A DNA stretch of 64,000 nucleotides from Clostridiales bacterium (GTDB lineage: Bacteria > Bacillota > Clostridia > Christensenellales > CAG-138): NCBI GenBank assembly GCA_009779405.1, contig WREI01000004.1, positions 52-64,051 on the forward strand. The letters run 5' to 3'. The first letter of the stretch is position 1. Each line of letters starts with the position of its first letter. A program made the translations under genes and the position numbers. The notes under the pieces are model-generated. The model was given only the letters and a program-made list of their open reading frames with translations, ran no database searches and was not told the DNA's origin. Shown one piece after another: positions 26,719 to 57,183 of the stretch.

Positions 26719-27271
26719 AGTTAAGAGTTAATAGTGAAGAGTGAAGAGTTTTGGTTGAAATGCCGTTGGCATTTCTTATCATTGTATTTCTTCACTTCCG
26801 CGTGCGATTGTCTTTGTTGCGGAGTTCAGCATTTTAAGCAATTCTTCGCAATCACCCCATATGGATTCATATTCTTTTTTTGCCAAATATCCCGTCTCAT
26901 AAAGTAACTCAATCCAATATAGCGTTTCGGCACATTCTTTCAGTGCAATACGAAGCTTACTGTGAAAGTCCTTGCGGCTGATAGCATAGCTGCTTTCCGC
27001 AGCGTTCGCGCCAATGCTTGTTCCGCTTCGCAACAACTGCTTGGAAAGCACATACTCCTTCTTTTCCTCACAGAGAAATCTATACAAATTCACGATTCTC
27101 ACAGCGAATCGTTTGCTCTTATATTTTACTGTTTTCTCATCAATCATCATCGCTTACTCCTAATCTTTATCGCGTTAAGAGTGAATAGTTGTAGTAGAAA
27201 TTCCTTCTAATATTATATGGGGAATCGCTTGCGATTCCTACCGCAACTCTTAACTCTTCACTCTTAACCCT
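26719..27271. repeat. Heptamer (AGTKAAK)n inverted-repeat cassette around a four-helix-bundle gene
   Basis: Arms 26719-26750 and 27174-27190 are both complementary to arm 27245-27271. Confidence 0.85.
26779..27150 (-). CDS. Four helix bundle protein (23S rRNA IVS protein / TIGR02436 family)
   Basis: KSKRFAVRIV, LSKQLLRSGTSIGAN, SRKDF.SKL.IALKE..ET.YW; AT-rich. Confidence 0.9.
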   Translation of the reverse strand: MMIDEKTVKYKSKRFAVRIVNLYRFLCEEKKEYVLSKQLLRSGTSIGANAAESSYAISRKDFHSKLRIALKECAETLYWIELLYETGYLAKKEYESIWGDCEELLKMLNSATKTIARGSEEIQ

Positions 27272-48338: not shown

Positions 48339-48497
48339 AAGTAATAATGCAGAATGCAGAGAAACTTCATACAATGAACATGCGTTAGGATGATTATACC
48401 AACTGTCTTTGCCCGGAACTTCTCTCTGTCCTCTGCATTATTACCTGTTATCTCTCAAACCCCTCTCTGCCTTCTGCATTCTTACTTATTACTTCTC
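48339..48497. repeat. Gene-less (AAGTAAT)(AATGCAG) heptamer element; inverted copy of 54167-54332
   Basis: One arm at 48339-48363, two complementary arms at 48421-48456 and 48463-48497; overlaps the cysS stop. Confidence 0.85.
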
Positions 48498-52780: not shown

Positions 52781-54154
52781 TTACTCCTTCTTCCAATTCA
52801 CAAACCTCGTATATTCTCCCTTGAAGACCAGCATGACTTTGCCTATCTCGCCGTGGCGGTACTTGCCGATGATCAGCTCGGCCTCGTCGTTCGCCGCGGG
52901 GTTGTAGACCTGTTCGCGATAGAGCAGGAGCACCATATCGGCGTCCTGCTCGATGCTGCCGCTCTCGCGCAGGTCGGAGACCTGGGGCCGTTTTTCCGCG
53001 CGCTTCTCCACGTCGCGGTTCAACTGGGAGAGCAGGAGTATGGGTACATTCAACTCGCGGGCCAGCAGCTTCATCATGCGGGTCATATCCGAAATTTCCT
53101 GCTGGCGGTTGTCGTTTTTGCGGCCACTCTGCCCCGTGCCGCTCATCAACTGCATATAGTCGATGACGACCAGATCGAGCCCGTGCCGCACTTTCAGGCG
53201 GCGGCACTTGCTGCGTATGCTTGCGACGGTCGCGCCGCCCGAGTCGTCGATAAAGAGCTTGGCGTTTTCTATGGGCGCGGCGGCCTCCAAGAGACTTGCC
53301 AGTTCCTGTTGGGAGATGGTTCCGTTCTTTACTCTCTCGGAATTGATGGCGGCGGCGGCGCAGAGCATGCGCTGCATCAGCTGCTCGCGGCTCATTTCCA
53401 AGCAAAAGAAAGCCACGCTGCGCTTATCGTGCACAGCGGCATGGTGGGCGATATTGAGCGCGAGCGTCGTCTTGCCCATGGCCGGGCGCGCGGCGAGTAT
53501 GATCAGGTCCGAGGGTTGCAGACCGTTGGTACTGCGGTTCAAGTCCGTAAAACCCGTATCCACACCCGTCAGCTTGCCCTTGTTCGCCATGAGGTTGCCG
53601 ATGCGCTCCAGCGTCGGGAACACGACATCCGAAGCGGGCAGCAGGCTCTCCTCCGACTTGCGCATGGACAGCGCATAAATGCGCCGCTCGGCCTCGTTGA
53701 GCGAATCCTCCACGTCCTTCTCGTCGCTGTAGCCGTCGCGCATCATCTCGCTGCCCGCGCGGATGATACCGCGCTGCAAGGCCCGCTCCTCGACGATGCG
53801 GATATAGTGCCGCACGTTCTCCGCCGTAGGCACGGCCAGATAGAGCTCCGCCAGATAGGCATCGCCGCCCGCGATATCGAGCTTGCCGTAGCGCGCCAAC
53901 TCCTCGCGCAATGTGACCATATCGACCGCATGCCCCGCCTGATGAATCTGCAGCATGGCTGTAAAGATCTCGCGGTGCGCGCCGACATAGAAATCCTCGG
54001 CGCGCAGGCTCTCCGCCGCTTCCTCCAATGCTTCGCGCGAAGACAGCGCCGCGCCCAGCACCGACTGCTCCGCGGCATGGCTGTGGGGAGAAGGGGTTTG
54101 GGGGGCAGGGGTGGGTTCGGAGGGGAGGTAGTTGTCTTGGGGATATGATTCCAT
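52781..54154 (-). CDS. dnaB: Replicative DNA helicase
   Basis: AEQSVLG, AARPAMGKT, IDYMQLM, SQLNR, DLRESGSIEQDAD. Confidence 0.97.
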   Translation of the reverse strand: MESYPQDNYLPSEPTPAPQTPSPHSHAAEQSVLGAALSSREALEEAAESLRAEDFYVGAHREIFTAMLQIHQAGHAVDMVTLREELARYGKLDIAGGDAYLAELYLAVPTAENVRHYIRIVEERALQRGIIRAGSEMMRDGYSDEKDVEDSLNEAERRIYALSMRKSEESLLPASDVVFPTLERIGNLMANKGKLTGVDTGFTDLNRSTNGLQPSDLIILAARPAMGKTTLALNIAHHAAVHDKRSVAFFCLEMSREQLMQRMLCAAAAINSERVKNGTISQQELASLLEAAAPIENAKLFIDDSGGATVASIRSKCRRLKVRHGLDLVVIDYMQLMSGTGQSGRKNDNRQQEISDMTRMMKLLARELNVPILLLSQLNRDVEKRAEKRPQVSDLRESGSIEQDADMVLLLYREQVYNPAANDEAELIIGKYRHGEIGKVMLVFKGEYTRFVNWKKE

Positions 54155-54166
54155 GTTGACCTCGCT

Positions 54167-54332
54167 AAGTAATAGGTAATAATGCAGAAGGCAGAGAGGA
54201 GTTGAGAAGTAACAGGTAATAATGCAGAAGGCAGAGAAGGTTCTTTGCAAAGACGTTGGTGCGATTTTGCTTGTTCCAACTCATGCTTCCTGGATGCAGT
54301 TTCTCTGCATTCTGCATTATTACTTATTACTT
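54167..54332. repeat. Gene-less heptamer element between rplI and dnaB
   Basis: Two arms AAGTAAY-AGGTAAT-AATGCAG-AAGGCAG-AGA (54167-54198, 54207-54238) and one complementary arm 54301-54332 containing the rplI stop. Confidence 0.88.
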
Positions 54333-54770
54333 CGCAATAACTCTCACCGTCACCACCGCACTCACGCCCTCAAAGAGGGCGATTCTCGCGCTGTATTCGC
54401 CGATAGCACGCACGGGATCCATGCGTATGTTCTTCTTATCGACGTCGACGCCCTTCTGCACTTTCAGCGCCGCGGCGACCTCCTTGTTTCCCACGGTGCC
54501 GAACATCTTGCCGTTCTCGCCCACGTTGGCCTGAATCGTCACCTGCGCGCGGTCGAGCGCCTTGGCCGCATCGCGTGCGGCGATGCCCGCCTGGAATTTG
54601 CGGTGCTGGGCCGCGCTCTTCTGAATGTTCATGGCGTTGATGCTTGCCGCGTCCGCGGGGCTGGCCATCTTGCGCGGCAGCAGGAAGTTGCGGGCATAGC
54701 CCTCCGCCACGTCCACGATCTCGCCCTTCTTCCCCGTGCCCTTGATGTCTTGTTCGAGTAATACCTTCAT
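54327..54770 (-). CDS. rplI: 50S ribosomal protein L9
   Basis: MKVLL..DIKG.GKKGEIV.V..GYARNFL.P, GKMFG.V. Confidence 0.97.
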   Translation of the reverse strand: MKVLLEQDIKGTGKKGEIVDVAEGYARNFLLPRKMASPADAASINAMNIQKSAAQHRKFQAGIAARDAAKALDRAQVTIQANVGENGKMFGTVGNKEVAAALKVQKGVDVDKKNIRMDPVRAIGEYSARIALFEGVSAVVTVRVIAK

Positions 54771-54802
54771 GATTTGCTCCTCCTTGTTTGCTTGGGTATG
54801 TG

Positions 54803-55254
54803 AAGTAATAAGTAATAATGCAGAATGCAGAGAGGGGTTCTATTTCTCGTCTGTCTTCTCTTGTCTGCTTTTTGAGGTTTTGATGATTGCGGTTAAAATC
54901 TTTTTTAGCTCCACGCAATCTGCCATAATGTTTTCTCCTTGGTTTTTTGTTAAGTATTCGGTCTTCTGTAATAAAAGCAACCAGTATTCTGTTTCGCTTG
55001 CTTCCTTATAGGCAATATACATCTTCGATAAAAAATCTTTGTTCGATTGCCCGTTGAATGCCTCGTGCGCGTTCGCGCCTATGCTTGTTCCGCTGCGCAA
55101 CAATTGCTTTGACATGATATATTCCTTTTTCTCCTGGCAAAGGAATTGATAGAGCCGAACGATCCGAACGGCAAAGGCCATGGATTTTATCAAAATCGCA
55201 CTGTCTTTCAAGTCTCATTCCCCTCTCTGCATTCTGCATTATTACCTATTACCT
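54803..55254. repeat. 35-bp heptamer-built inverted repeats tightly bracketing a four-helix-bundle gene
   Basis: AAGTAAT AAGTAAT AATGCAG AATGCAG AGAGGGG (54803-54837) vs reverse complement of 55220-55254 (33/35 identical). Confidence 0.92.
54840..55211 (-). CDS. Four helix bundle protein (23S rRNA IVS protein / TIGR02436 family)
   Basis: KSMAFAVRIV, MSKQLLRSGTSIGAN, S.KDFLSKM.IA.KEA.ET.YWL; AT-rich. Confidence 0.9.
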   Translation of the reverse strand: MKDSAILIKSMAFAVRIVRLYQFLCQEKKEYIMSKQLLRSGTSIGANAHEAFNGQSNKDFLSKMYIAYKEASETEYWLLLLQKTEYLTKNQGENIMADCVELKKILTAIIKTSKSRQEKTDEK

Positions 55255-57183
55255 CTCCTCCCCGCTCTCCTCATACTCCTCGATGCTCTTCAGCAGCGCA
55301 AGCTTTGCTTCCGCGATGTTTTGGCCCCGCATCTGCGCGCCGGCCATGTTGAGGTGGCCGCCGCCGCCCAGGCGTTCCAATATGATTTGGACGTTTATCC
55401 CGCCGTAGCTTCGGCCGGAGATGGCGACGGCGTTGCTCTCATAGCCGAGGACGAAGGCCGCCTTGACGCCGCGTATGTCGAGCAGGGCGTCCGCCGCGCG
55501 CGCGGCCAATATCTTGGTATCCGCCACTTCGCCGCAGTCGGAGACCGCGATGCCGCTGTCGCGCACATAGGCGCGCCGCACCACCTCGCCGCAGGCCAGG
55601 TAACCGTCCAGATCGTATTGGAACATGAGTTTGACCGTTGCGAGGTCGGCGCCGTTGCGGCGCAGATAGCCTGCGGCCTCGAACGTGCGCCCGCCCGTGT
55701 TGAACGCGAACTGTTTGGTATCGACCGTGATGCCCGCCAAGAGCGCGCTGCATGTGAAGGCCGTGGGGCGCAGGGTCTCGTCGAAATATTGCATAACCTC
55801 GGTCACCATCTCGGAGGCCGAGGAAGCGCGGGACTCGGTATAATAGAGTGTCGCGCCCTCGATAAAGTCCGCGCTGCGGCGGTGGTGGTCTATGATCGCG
55901 ATATGCTTGCTGCGCCCGATAAATTCCGGCGCGACCGTCGTGTTCGCGCGCTGGGTGTCCACGACCACGAGCACGGAGTTGCCGCGCAGGAGCGACGCCG
56001 CCTGTTCGGGCGTTTTCAAAAGCCGACGCGACAGGCCCTCGCGCTCCATATGTTCCAGCGCATCGGAGATCGTGGGGTTGGGGCCGTCGAGTATGATGCT
56101 GACCCGCTTGCCGACGTGCATTGCGCAGGCGGCTATGCCGAGCGCCGCGCCGATGCAGTCCATATCGGAATATTTATGGCCCATGATAAAGACGTCGCCG
56201 CCGTTCTCAAAGAGCTGGTGCAGGGCGCGGGCGAACTGGCGCGCGCGCACGCGGGAGCGGTTGCTGTCCAACTGGCGCTTGCCGCCATAGAAACGATAGT
56301 CCGCGCCCGCCTTGACGACCGCCTGGTCGCCGCCGCGGCCCAATGCCAGCTCCATGGCCGAGCGCGCGGCCTCCTCGCTGTCGGACAATTGGTTCGCCAC
56401 GCCCACGGCGATGGATAAGGATAAGAATCCACCGCTGCCCGTTTCGATTTTCCGCGCTTCCTGCAACACCGTGAATTTCTCGGCTTCCAATTCTTCCAAC
56501 TGCTTGGCGGCGATGGCGCAGAAATATTTGCCCGTTGCGATGCGCCGATATATGCCCCCCAAGCGCGCGCAGAGCTCGGCGACCAAGCGCTCCGCCTGCG
56601 CGAGTACGGCGGTGCTTGCGATCTGGGTGTCGCCCGACAGCTCCTCGAAATTATCGACATAGATGAGCATGCAATAGGGCATCTGCTCGGTATAAAGCCG
56701 CTGGTAATGCACGGCTTCCGTGCGGTCTAACCAATATTGGAAGACGAGCCGCGTCTTCGCCGAGGGGCGCTGGAGCGGCATCTGCATAACCTGATAGGTC
56801 GCGCCGTGGTGGTTCAACTGCTGTGCCAGTGCCGTACCCGTCAGGAAATTCGGCAGCACGGCTTGGATGTTCTTGCCCATAAACAGCTCCGCCATGGCCT
56901 TGTTGCGCCAGAGCACGCGGCCCGAATCCTGCATGATCAGCGCGGGGACGGAGACATCGTTTATGATGCGCCGCGCCGCGTCCCTATTTTCGGCGGCGAC
57001 GCGGTTCATCAGGCGCTCCTGTTTGACGTTCACATGGCGCAGGCGAAGGAAGACATAGAGCATGCAGAGCAGGCTCAGCCCCGCCGCGCCCAGCCCCCAA
57101 TAGAGCTGCCAATAGGCAAGCGCGCCGGAGATGGCCAGCAGCAGGATGAACAGGACGGAGATAACGCCGCGGTAATTCTTCAT
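55249..57183 (-). CDS. gdpP: c-di-AMP phosphodiesterase GdpP (PAS, degenerate GGDEF, DHH/DHHA1)
   Basis: 2 TM, LGRGGDQAVV, MGH..DMD, VVDT, IDHHR, GGGGH; conserved yybS-gdpP-rplI-dnaB order. Confidence 0.93.
   Translation of the reverse strand: MKNYRGVISVLFILLLAISGALAYWQLYWGLGAAGLSLLCMLYVFLRLRHVNVKQERLMNRVAAENRDAARRIINDVSVPALIMQDSGRVLWRNKAMAELFMGKNIQAVLPNFLTGTALAQQLNHHGATYQVMQMPLQRPSAKTRLVFQYWLDRTEAVHYQRLYTEQMPYCMLIYVDNFEELSGDTQIASTAVLAQAERLVAELCARLGGIYRRIATGKYFCAIAAKQLEELEAEKFTVLQEARKIETGSGGFLSLSIAVGVANQLSDSEEAARSAMELALGRGGDQAVVKAGADYRFYGGKRQLDSNRSRVRARQFARALHQLFENGGDVFIMGHKYSDMDCIGAALGIAACAMHVGKRVSIILDGPNPTISDALEHMEREGLSRRLLKTPEQAASLLRGNSVLVVVDTQRANTTVAPEFIGRSKHIAIIDHHRRSADFIEGATLYYTESRASSASEMVTEVMQYFDETLRPTAFTCSALLAGITVDTKQFAFNTGGRTFEAAGYLRRNGADLATVKLMFQYDLDGYLACGEVVRRAYVRDSGIAVSDCGEVADTKILAARAADALLDIRGVKAAFVLGYESNAVAISGRSYGGINVQIILERLGGGGHLNMAGAQMRGQNIAEAKLALLKSIEEYEESGEER

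What the first reader, a model, noticed from the sequence alone, without database searches (positions are those of the whole stretch)
54803..55254. Four-helix-bundle gene exactly enclosed by heptamer-built inverted repeats: candidate mRNA intervening-sequence element
Seen: an AT-rich TIGR02436-type gene sits inside the conserved gdpP-rplI junction. It is flanked within 2 and 8 nt by 35-bp inverted arms made of 7-mers, (AAGTAAT)2(AATGCAG)2AGAGGGG, 33/35 identical. The upstream arm supplies the gdpP stop codon. There is no transposase and no obvious target duplication. Known: this protein family was first found in 23S rRNA intervening sequences, which are stem-closed and removed by RNase III, and it is structurally related to the RNA-binding DGR protein Avd. 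Inference: arm pairing in the transcript loops out the gene and brings the gdpP stop close to the rplI RBS. The cassette could be a near-neutral selfish unit or a regulatory insert whose protein binds the 7-nt-periodic RNA.
Basis: partly seen in the sequence, partly recalled or inferred. Interest (0 to 1): 0.85.

Follow-up and report, generated by a model that had tools for sequence, protein, structure and literature searches.

The report
Four-helix gene cassette with heptamer arms

Summary
A 123-aa TIGR02436/PF05635 gene (54840-55211, minus strand) lies 2 and 8 nt from 35-nt inverted arms (33/35 identical). The arms are built as (AAGTAAT)2(AATGCAG)2AGAGGGG. The cassette sits between gdpP and rplI, and the upstream arm holds the gdpP stop codon.

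The arms are not private to this gene. They belong to a repeat family of about 61 loci in this genome, nearly all gene-less hairpins. The genome's two other TIGR02436 genes are also bracketed by heptamer-built inverted arms, each with different heptamers.

The layout is general. Among 80 homologous loci from many phyla, 130 of 159 gene-proximal flanks carry a period-7 tract. Every other period from 4 to 12 scored 3 or fewer, and distal control windows scored 10 of 301.

None of 29 sampled relatives has the cassette at this junction, and none of 35 metagenome relatives does either.

The published Coxiella 23S IVS of the same protein family has a 28-bp stem with heptameric repeats and is excised by RNase III. 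My best reading is therefore an IVS-type selfish cassette outside rRNA, linked to dispersed heptamer hairpins.

RNase III cutting, protein binding to the heptamers and the means of spread are all inferred. I found no RNA-strand-specific selection on the stems.

The parts
55249..57183 (-). gdpP (cyclic-di-AMP phosphodiesterase type). Its last codons and its TAA stop (55249-55251) lie in the upstream arm.
   Evidence: ORF. DHH, GGDEF_GdpP and DHHA1 domains.
55220..55254 (.). Arm on the gdpP side, the 5' arm in the sense RNA: AGGTAAT AGGTAAT AATGCAG AATGCAG AGAGGGG. Its inner AGAGGGG lies about 9 nt before the TTG start and could serve as the ribosome-binding site.
   Evidence: (I1).
54840..55211 (-). 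Gene for a 123-aa four-helix-bundle protein (TIGR02436 / PF05635, S23p / Avd-like), pI 9.2.
   Evidence: (PDB 2rld_A, E 9.9e-38).
54803..54837 (.). Arm on the rplI side, the 3' arm in the sense RNA. It is the reverse complement of the other arm at 33 of 35 positions, and both mismatches are G.U in the sense RNA.
54327..54770 (-). rplI (ribosomal protein L9). Its ribosome-binding site AAGGAGG lies at about 54779-54787, just outside the cassette.
54167..54332 (.). Gene-less hairpin of the same arm family in the rplI-dnaB spacer. There are two + arms (54167-54195, 54207-54235) and one - arm (54304-54332), with a loop module of about 70 nt.
48339..48494 (.). Another gene-less hairpin of the same arm family, with the same loop module of about 70 nt.
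26720..27271 (-). Second cassette in the window. The TIGR02436 gene is at 26779-27150. Its arms are built of other heptamers (GTTAAGA GTTAATA GTGAAGA GTGAAGA) at 26720-26750, 27174-27190 and 27246-27271. It lies between kdd and kce of the lysine-fermentation operon.

Best explanation
The 452-bp unit at 54803-55254 is one copy of a widespread, horizontally moving cassette. It consists of a TIGR02436/PF05635 four-helix-bundle gene bracketed by inverted arrays of about five 7-nt units.

In this lineage it landed in the normally tight gdpP-rplI junction, in the same orientation as the operon. Its arms belong to a family of about 61 heptamer hairpins scattered through the intergenic DNA of the same genome. 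I read those as gene-less relatives of the cassette.

Proposed working:
- The cassette is transcribed by read-through from the host operon.
- In that RNA the arms pair into a duplex of about 36 bp that loops out the gene.
- As in the 23S rRNA intervening sequences of the same protein family, that duplex is probably cut by RNase III. This separates the flanking cistrons without destroying them, so the insertion is tolerated.
- The basic protein, which by homology forms a pentameric ring, probably binds the tandem heptamers of its own arm family as single-stranded nucleic acid, one unit per subunit. It would thereby help keep or spread the arrays.

Shown here: the anatomy, the insertion, the family-wide gene-heptamer link, the dispersed arrays and the co-orientation with host genes.

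Inferred: RNase III cutting, protein-heptamer binding and any role in spread.
For: 1. All three TIGR02436 genes of the genome sit between heptamer-built inverted arms, each with its own heptamers. They are the only cargo in the 300-500 nt loop class, apart from rplI lying between two hairpins.

2. Period-7 tracts are a special feature of this genome.
- At 18 or more matches of 21 there are 92 tracts, against 0-2 for periods 4, 5, 8, 10 and 11.
- At 16 or more of 21 there are 279, against 11 for period 5 and 3 for period 8.
- 204 of the 279 lie outside crude ORFs, although crude ORFs cover 91% of the genome.

3. Family 1 has 90 arms at 61 loci. In three metagenome runs from two studies the arms have 26-51 times the depth of the unique flanks.

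4. Across phyla, 130 of 159 proximal flanks at 80 loci carry a period-7 tract.
- Every other period from 4 to 12 scored 3 or fewer, and distal windows scored 10 of 301.
- The heptamers upstream and downstream of a gene are identical in 28 of 55 loci and within one mismatch in 42 of 55.
- The heptamers share a core AATTA-N-G/C: 6.76 bits against at most 4.93 in 20 shuffles.
- The same heptamers flank the gene in hosts of many phyla.

5. In five unrelated genomes, 15 of 16 paralogues have a period-7 flank, each paralogue with a different heptamer.
- The flank heptamer also occurs at about 13 other loci in three of these genomes.
- In a Richelia genome it gives about 2,500 overlapping hits.

6. 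The site is an insertion.
- 0 of 29 relatives' rplI loci hold the gene, and 21 of them keep gdpP directly upstream, with the end of the tblastn GdpP match (query residue 619-634 of 644) 29-131 nt from the rplI start.
- 0 of 35 metagenome relatives hold it.
- The gene's GC is below that of its flanks in 78 of 79 loci.

7. The gene is co-oriented with its upstream neighbour in 62 of 74 loci and with its downstream neighbour in 54 of 75.

8. Stem and enzyme.
- The closing stem is 36 bp with z = -5.86.
- RNase III domain genes are present in the genome.
- PMC4990558 (passages read) reports a 28-bp terminal stem, tandem heptameric repeats of variable number, a sense-oriented S23p ORF and RNase III excision for the Coxiella IVS. 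It cites a homopentameric toroid for the Xanthomonas homologue.

9. Protein and array size.
- The protein's pI is 9.2, and 60 of 80 homologues have a pI above 8.
- Array lengths peak at 5-6 units.

10. Relatives without the gene show no heptamers: 0 period-7 tracts in 400 kb from 6 genomes. One relative with the gene (G130) has 7 per 100 kb, built of the same heptamer as its gene's arms.
Against: - No RNA data exist for this organism, so cleavage is unseen.
- Stem mismatches show no bias toward G.U on the transcribed strand: 38 against 37 and 19 against 24. Selection on an RNA stem is therefore not detectable, and a DNA-level role fits equally well.
- Four of the seven heptamer families of this genome have no resident TIGR02436 gene in the assembly, which is 92.7% complete. 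They hold 109 of 279 tracts.
- Several relatives with the gene have few or no dispersed tracts in the DNA sampled: G006, G083, G004, G104 and G074.
- 16 of 30 loci in the host's own family lack period-7 flanks. These belong to another clade of the protein, flanked by other repeats or by none.
- The nearest arms flank the gene as hairpin arms in only 23 of 55 loci. In 18 the gene lies between two hairpins, and in 14 the arms are direct repeats.
- Loops of the gene-less hairpins are unrelated to the gene. Descent of the hairpins from the cassette is therefore not shown.
- No target duplication and no mobilising enzyme were found.
Confidence: 0.6

Rival explanations
1. Landing-pad reading. Heptamer hairpins arise on their own, by replication slippage or some unrelated mobiliser. 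They are simply favoured insertion or recombination sites for a selfish small gene. The protein has no functional tie to the heptamers.
For: - Most hairpins are gene-less, and their loops are unrelated to the gene.
- Four heptamer families have no resident gene.
- Another cargo, an AbiH gene, lies between family-1 arms on contig C81.
- The gdpP-rplI junction holds different inserts in close relatives.
- Stem mismatches show no RNA-strand bias.
Against: - The gene travels with its heptamers. The same AATTACG, AATTATG and AATTAGG arms flank it in hosts of many phyla.
- The heptamers share a conserved core beyond chance.
- Each paralogue within a genome has its own heptamer.
- Relatives lacking the gene had 0 tracts in 400 kb.
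- 130 of 159 flanks against 10 of 301 distal windows is far above what a general intergenic preference would give.
Confidence: 0.15
2. Host-regulatory reading. The heptamer hairpins are REP-like cis elements that the host uses for mRNA stability, operon punctuation or nucleoid-protein sites. The four-helix-bundle protein is their trans-acting regulator, so the unit is a small regulon rather than a selfish element.
For: - The hairpins are strongly intergenic: 204 of 279 tracts lie outside crude ORFs that cover 91% of the genome.
- They occur inside operons, for example around rplI and between kce and kdd.
- Arm sequences are highly uniform across loci while the loops vary.
- The protein is basic.
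Against: - Distribution is patchy: 32 of 121 genomes of the host family carry the gene.
- The gene's composition looks foreign in 78 of 79 loci.
- Identity across phyla is 51-64%.
- The cassette is absent from the same junction in all relatives.
- The hairpins occur in convergent, divergent and tandem gene contexts alike.
Confidence: 0.15
3. DGR-accessory reading. The protein is an Avd of a diversity-generating retroelement, and the repeats are template or variable repeats.
For: Weak bAvd-like Pfam hits occur in 4 of 19 homologues. PF05635 is described as Avd-like in PMC10053308 (passages read).
Against: - The genome's reverse-transcriptase matches lie on contigs C105 and C14, not beside any of the three genes on C4 and C7.
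- The flanks are short heptamer arrays, not repeat pairs of about 100 nt differing at adenines.
Confidence: 0.02

Closest known systems
23S rRNA intervening sequences that carry an S23p ORF (Coxiella burnetii, Leptospira; PMC4990558, passages read)
   Same: - The protein family is the same (PF05635).
- The size is similar, about 430-450 nt.
- The ORF is enclosed by terminal inverted repeats that form a stem of about 28-36 bp.
- The stem region is made of tandem heptameric repeats whose number varies.
- The ORF is in sense with the host transcript.
- RNase III excision has been shown there.
   Different: - This copy lies between protein-coding genes (gdpP and rplI), not in helix 25 or 45 of 23S rRNA.
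- Its arms are also present at about 60 other loci, mostly without a gene.
- Processing was not observed here.
- The Coxiella paper notes the heptamers locally and does not generalise them.
Heptameric simple-sequence repeats of Xanthomonas (GGGAATC) and Nostoc (GGGGA(C/T)T), and the tandem heptanucleotides of Calothrix (PMC4692102, passages read; the name STRR is recalled)
   Same: - They are intergenic arrays of 7-nt units, over-represented against other periods.
- In Xanthomonas 70-75 arrays occur as convergent inverted pairs.
- Unit number varies between relatives.
- Their function is unknown.
   Different: - That paper treats them as G-quadruplex formers. It does not mention the 23S IVS protein: the terms 'intervening' and '23S' had 0 occurrences.
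- Here the arrays bracket TIGR02436 genes, and most are not G-rich.
- I could not test whether the Xanthomonas homologue is flanked by GGGAATC.
MITEs and REP/BIME elements (REPtrons with RAYT transposases)
   Same: They are short, dispersed, intergenic, hairpin-forming repeats, with dozens of copies per genome and arms far more alike than their surroundings.
   Different: - No target-site duplication was seen.
- Loops are heterogeneous rather than copies of one element.
- 0 of 3 Y1-transposase genes of the genome are flanked by heptamer arrays.
- The only recurrent cargo is a 120-aa helical protein with no known transposase fold.
bAvd, accessory protein of diversity-generating retroelements
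   Same: It is a homologous four-helix-bundle protein. It is basic, pentameric and nucleic-acid-binding (PMC10053308 and PMC4990558 passages).
   Different: Here there is no reverse transcriptase, template repeat or variable repeat beside the gene. Heptamer arrays are not a described DGR feature.

Membership tests
TIGR02436 / PF05635 (four helix bundle protein; 23S rRNA-intervening sequence protein) | HMM score above the curated cut-off over the full length | tested here: met
   TIGR02436 scores 113.1 bits against a cut-off of 24, covering profile positions 3-109 of 109. PF05635 scores 101 bits against 33.8.
TIGR02436 / PF05635 | Conserved helix-2 motif G-x2-R-x3-S-x3-N-x2-E (as quoted in PMC3936711) | tested here: met
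   R38, S42, N46 and E49 are invariant or nearly so in 19 homologues. The first position is Q35 here instead of G.
TIGR02436 / PF05635 | Four-helix-bundle fold | tested here: met
   Judged by sequence only: PDB 2rld_A at E 9.9e-38 over residues 1-114. No model was built here.
23S rRNA intervening sequence (IVS) element | Located inside a 23S rRNA helix | tested here: not met
   It lies between gdpP and rplI. Rfam finds no rRNA in 54000-55500.
23S rRNA intervening sequence (IVS) element | Terminal inverted repeats that form a long stem enclosing the ORF, with the ORF in sense with the host transcript | tested here: met
   The arms match at 33 of 35 positions. The closing stem is 36 bp. The gene is on the same strand as gdpP and rplI.
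23S rRNA intervening sequence (IVS) element | Excision from the transcript by RNase III | not testable with these tools
   No RNA run holds the locus. RNase III domain genes are present in the genome.
DGR accessory protein (Avd) | Adjacent reverse transcriptase and template/variable repeats | tested here: not met
   RVT_1 matches occur only on contigs C105 and C14.
MITE / transposon | Terminal inverted repeats and many dispersed copies | tested here: met
   90 arms at 61 loci.
MITE / transposon | Target-site duplication, and an autonomous partner that encodes a transposase with the same ends | tested here: not met
   There is no direct repeat outside the arms. Cargo in the 300-500 nt loops is only the TIGR02436 genes. 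The Y1 transposase genes are not flanked by the arrays. Other transposase families were not searched.
Anti-phage defence systems (PADLOC) | Match to a known defence protein model | tested here: not met
   0 families matched for all three paralogues at E up to 0.01.

The most novel reading that the evidence does not exclude
TIGR02436 proteins and heptamer arrays together form a previously unrecognised, pan-bacterial class of selfish element.

In this reading the pentameric four-helix-bundle ring reads tandem 7-nt units, one unit per subunit, with each paralogue matched to its own heptamer. It drives or protects the spread of gene-less heptamer hairpins.

If so, the 23S rRNA intervening sequences, the heptamer repeats of cyanobacteria and Xanthomonas, and the 'four helix bundle protein' genes found wedged into operons would all be faces of one system. 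That system would use neither a transposase nor a recombinase of any known kind.
Probability: 0.3. Interest if true: 0.9.

Novelty: new variant of a known kind. Interest (0 to 1): 0.8.

Why it matters
An excess of 7-nt tandem repeats in some bacterial genomes has been reported without an explanation (PMC4692102, passages read). The TIGR02436/PF05635 family is large and has no known function.

Here the two are tied together.
- The gene is bracketed by inverted heptamer arrays in most of the loci examined across many phyla.
- The same heptamers are dispersed through the carrier genomes.
- The one experimentally studied relative is an RNase III-excised intervening sequence (PMC4990558).

This turns an open descriptive puzzle into direct experiments, listed under the next steps. 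It also warns annotators that these genes inside operons, for example inside cas loci (PMC3936711), are probably insertions rather than members of the operon. My ten full-text searches found no paper that makes the general link.

Tried and rejected
- The search for related loci with the 19-row alignment A1 failed because it had no conserved stretch. I repeated it with the 12-row alignment A2.
- Rfam shows nothing real at 54000-55500. It returned only a plant miRNA hairpin model at 30 bits against a gathering score of 211, and a weak sRNA hit.
- No intrinsic terminator was found in 54100-55500.
- I tested whether the gene-less hairpin loops are internally deleted copies of the cassette. Beyond the arms only an 11-nt match appeared (E 0.017), so I rejected the idea.
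- I tested for RNA-strand bias of stem mismatches and found none.
- Expression: no RNA holder is listed for the locus.
- Read laying on three DNA runs showed unitigs breaking at the arms. The joints it reported are other hairpin copies. No empty allele was seen.
- Complex prediction with 4 copies of the protein gave no verdict. I do not use it as evidence either way.
- PADLOC gave no match.
- DGR context is absent.
- A REPtron-like context is absent for the 3 Y1 transposase genes.
- Longer-spaced arm pairs (over 500 nt) enclose ordinary host genes lying between neighbouring hairpins, not transposases.
- The contrast between relatives with and without the gene is weak. There were 0 tracts in 6 genomes without it. 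Of the genomes with it, 4 of 12 sampled had dispersed tracts (G130, G086, G001 and 1 in G129). The samples were only 8-100 kb per genome.
- Literature searches returned nothing relevant. One search was a formatting error.
- Not done: structure prediction, fold search, the large protein-database searches, a protein tree or residue-heptamer covariation, and a check of the Xanthomonas homologue's flanks (no handle to that genome).
Full report
**The observation**

Everything here lies on the minus strand. In transcription order the genes are gdpP (55249-57183), a 123-aa ORF (54840-55211), rplI (54327-54770) and dnaB (52781-54250).

The ORF is a clear member of TIGR02436 (7.2e-33) and PF05635 (5.4e-29). 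Its neighbours are L9 and a DHH/GGDEF_GdpP/DHHA1 protein.

The two 35-nt arms, 54803-54837 and 55220-55254, read (AAGTAAT)2(AATGCAG)2AGAGGGG and differ at two positions. The repeat finder extends them to 44 nt at 89% complementarity. They lie 2 nt from the stop codon and 8 nt from a TTG start, which homologues support.

The gdpP stop codon lies inside the upstream arm. The cassette is AT-rich. It has no other ORF with a family hit, no terminator and no flanking direct repeat.

The sense RNA folds with a 36-bp closing stem (z = -5.86).

**The arms are a genome-wide repeat family**

The arm core occurs 7 times in the window against 0.15 expected. This includes a gene-less hairpin in the rplI-dnaB spacer (54167-54332) and another at 48339-48494.

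In the whole assembly (2.5 Mb, 116 contigs, 92.7% complete) there are 90 arms at 61 loci. Nearly all are hairpins of the form outer-(AAGTAAT)2(AATGCAG)2AGAG-loop-reverse complement.
- Loops are either 5-25 nt and unrelated to one another, or a recurrent module of about 70 nt that occurs in either orientation.
- Loops are not derived from the gene.

In three metagenome runs from two studies the arms have 26-51 times the depth of the unique flanks, and the unitigs break at the arms.

**Heptamers are a general feature of this genome, and of all three copies of the gene**

Period-7 tracts number 92 at the strict threshold, against 0-2 for periods 4, 5, 8, 10 and 11. At the looser threshold there are 279, against 11 for period 5 and 3 for period 8. 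Of the 279, 204 lie outside crude ORFs that cover 91% of the genome.

The tracts fall into at least seven heptamer families. The genome has three TIGR02436 genes, and each is bracketed by inverted arms of a different family:
- AATGCAG/AAGTAAT here;
- GTTAAGA/GTGAAGA at window 26720-27271, between kce and kdd of the lysine-fermentation operon;
- CAATGCT/CAACGCG on contig C7.

Among 80 inverted arm pairs, loops are 20-150 nt (54 pairs), none is 150-300 nt, and four are 300-500 nt. Three of those four are the gene cassettes (GC 0.40-0.44). The fourth is rplI lying between two hairpins.

Against a strict gene-array dependence, four families holding 109 of the 279 tracts have no resident gene in the assembly.

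**The site is an insertion**

L9 was found in 41 of 41 sampled genomes, G000 included. None of the 29 relatives' loci fetched has a match to the cassette protein. In 21 of them gdpP lies directly upstream of rplI, with the end of the tblastn GdpP match (query residue 619-634 of 644) 29-131 nt from the rplI start. In the 18 junctions I printed, gdpP either runs up to the rplI ribosome-binding site or stops within about 100 nt of the rplI start.

None of 35 metagenome relatives holds the cassette.
- The closest (88% L9 identity) has a different insert of about 1.7 kb encoding a leucine-rich-repeat protein.
- A 68% relative has a 340-aa ORF plus one heptamer tract.

The junction is therefore variable in this lineage, and the cassette is not vertically conserved.

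**The gene-heptamer link holds across phyla**

TIGR02436 is patchy in the host's family, present in 32 of 121 genomes, and many copies sit at contig ends. In that sample 14 of 30 loci have a period-7 flank. The other 16 belong to another clade of the protein, flanked by other composite repeats or by none.

A scan of one genome per species found at least 597 relatives. The best 80 (51-64% identity) come from:
- Clostridia, Bacteroidota and several Pseudomonadota;
- Myxococcota, Planctomycetota and Verrucomicrobiota;
- SAR202, Treponema and a Richelia cyanobacterium;
- Fusobacteria, Acidobacteria and Ignavibacteria.

At these loci 130 of 159 gene-proximal flanks carry a period-7 tract. Every other period from 4 to 12 scored 3 or fewer, and distal windows of the same loci scored 10 of 301.
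- The upstream and downstream heptamers are reverse complements. They are identical in 28 of 55 loci and within one mismatch in 42 of 55. Random pairs of loci differ by 2.5 letters on average.
- The units share a core AATTA-N-G/C: 6.76 bits against at most 4.93 in 20 shuffles.
- The same units (AATTACG, AATTATG, AATTAGG) flank the gene in hosts of many phyla.
- The gene's GC is below that of its flanks in 78 of 79 loci.
- The gene is co-oriented with its upstream neighbour in 62 of 74 loci and with its downstream neighbour in 54 of 75.

For an unselected check I took every paralogue in five unrelated genomes. 15 of 16 have a period-7 flank, each paralogue with its own heptamer.

The flank heptamer is also dispersed through these genomes. 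It occurs at about 13 loci each in a Muribaculaceae, a Syntrophomonas and Bacteroides oleiciplenus. In the Richelia genome it gives about 2,500 overlapping hits.

**Relatives with and without the gene**

Six relatives without the gene had 0 period-7 tracts in 400 kb. Among relatives with the gene:
- G130 had 7 per 100 kb, built of the same unit as its gene's arms;
- G086 had 3 in 60 kb;
- G001 had 4 in 40 kb, one of them a G-run;
- G129 had 1 per 100 kb;
- the others had none of a family type in 8-100 kb.

The direction fits a link, but the sample is small and the genomes are related to one another.

**What is known**

PMC4990558 (passages read) describes the Coxiella 23S IVS as follows:
- a 428-nt element with a 28-bp terminal stem;
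- three or four tandem heptameric repeats (GACAGAT), whose number varies between strains;
- a sense-oriented S23p ORF;
- excision by RNase III in vitro, with ends mapped in the stem.

The same paper cites a homopentameric toroid for the Xanthomonas homologue.

PMC4692102 (passages read) describes the excess of heptameric repeats in Xanthomonas and Nostoc, including 70-75 convergent pairs. It does not mention this protein family.

PMC3936711 (passage read) found 18 genes of the family inside cas loci, for example between cmr3 and cmr2. It read them as Cas-associated.

PMC10053308 (passages read) relates PF05635 to Avd. Here 4 of 19 homologues give weak bAvd hits.

None of my ten searches found a paper that ties the family to heptamer arrays in general.

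**How it most likely works**

The anatomy is shown: a promoter-poor, co-oriented cassette whose arms form a long duplex in the operon transcript. The genome has RNase III domain genes.

By analogy with the IVS, the duplex is probably cut. That would free the flanking cistrons and make the insertion nearly neutral.

The protein is basic (pI 9.2; 60 of 80 homologues above 8). Array lengths peak at 5-6 units. A pentameric ring reading about five 7-nt units of single-stranded nucleic acid is therefore an attractive model. The comparison with TRAP binding triplet repeats is recalled, not tested.

Three results weigh against an RNA-only reading:
- Stem mismatches show no preference for G.U on the transcribed strand: 38 against 37, and 19 against 24.
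- The gene is not always inside the hairpin.
- Some heptamer families lack a gene.

How the units spread is unknown. I found no target duplication, no adjacent reverse transcriptase and no Y1 transposase flanked by arrays.

**Verdict**

The finding is real and richer than described. It is a member of the IVS/S23p kind of element, outside rRNA, and part of a gene-plus-heptamer-hairpin system that appears general and undescribed in the literature I could search.

I rate it a new variant of a known kind, with a fair chance that the whole system is a new class of mobile element.

Noticed in passing
G000 contig C81 (locus L254:186-2096): A 549-aa AbiH-family abortive-infection gene (PF14253, 8.8e-36) lies between a family-1 arm (about 207, +) and a family-1 mini-hairpin (about 2010-2075). 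The same arms may therefore bracket other cargo.
   Followed up: partly
window 54167-54332 and 48339-48494; G000 C73:1428, C73:6459, C47:17022, C16:28128, C16:29617, C5:64835: A conserved loop module of about 70 nt recurs inside family-1 hairpins, in either orientation. It has no Rfam match in the part scanned and no likeness to the gene. It could be a small RNA or the core of a MITE.
   Followed up: partly
L203:236-2000; L205:441-2000; L005: The gdpP-rplI junction is a variable spot in close relatives. One (88% L9 identity) has a leucine-rich-repeat protein gene there. Another (68%) has a 340-aa membrane-like ORF plus a heptamer tract.
   Followed up: partly
G000 genome-wide: Four heptamer families (GGAAAGT/GGAAAGA 52 tracts, GGCAGTA/GGCAATA 28, GTGTGGA 21, GAGAACT 8) have no TIGR02436 gene in the assembly.
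   Followed up: partly
G000 C30:11107-11953 (locus L255): A 776-nt low-GC (0.48) stretch lies between GGAAAGA-family arms. It holds a 106-aa ORF (and a 180-aa ORF on the other strand) that I did not scan against any family library. It may be another kind of cargo.
   Followed up: no
L043:1356-1936; L048:1220-1932; L056:1887-2139: A second clade of TIGR02436 genes in the host's family is flanked not by heptamers but by arrays of composite repeats. These have 8-mers such as ACATCACT or GTGAAAT on either side of a small GC hairpin, inverted across the gene.
   Followed up: partly
G137 (Richelia genome of locus L137/L246): (TGACAGT)3 with up to 2 mismatches gives 2,507 overlapping hits in 7.3 Mb, so cyanobacterial heptamer arrays can be very numerous. 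The tool's reversed-pattern control is uninformative here because the unit reads the same backwards.
   Followed up: partly
table (for example G062:C119:9-329, G058:C33:432-749, G129:C31:449-766): Many TIGR02436 genes in draft genomes lie within a few hundred bases of a contig end. This is expected if their flanking repeats break assemblies, so copy numbers in MAGs are probably underestimates.
   Followed up: no
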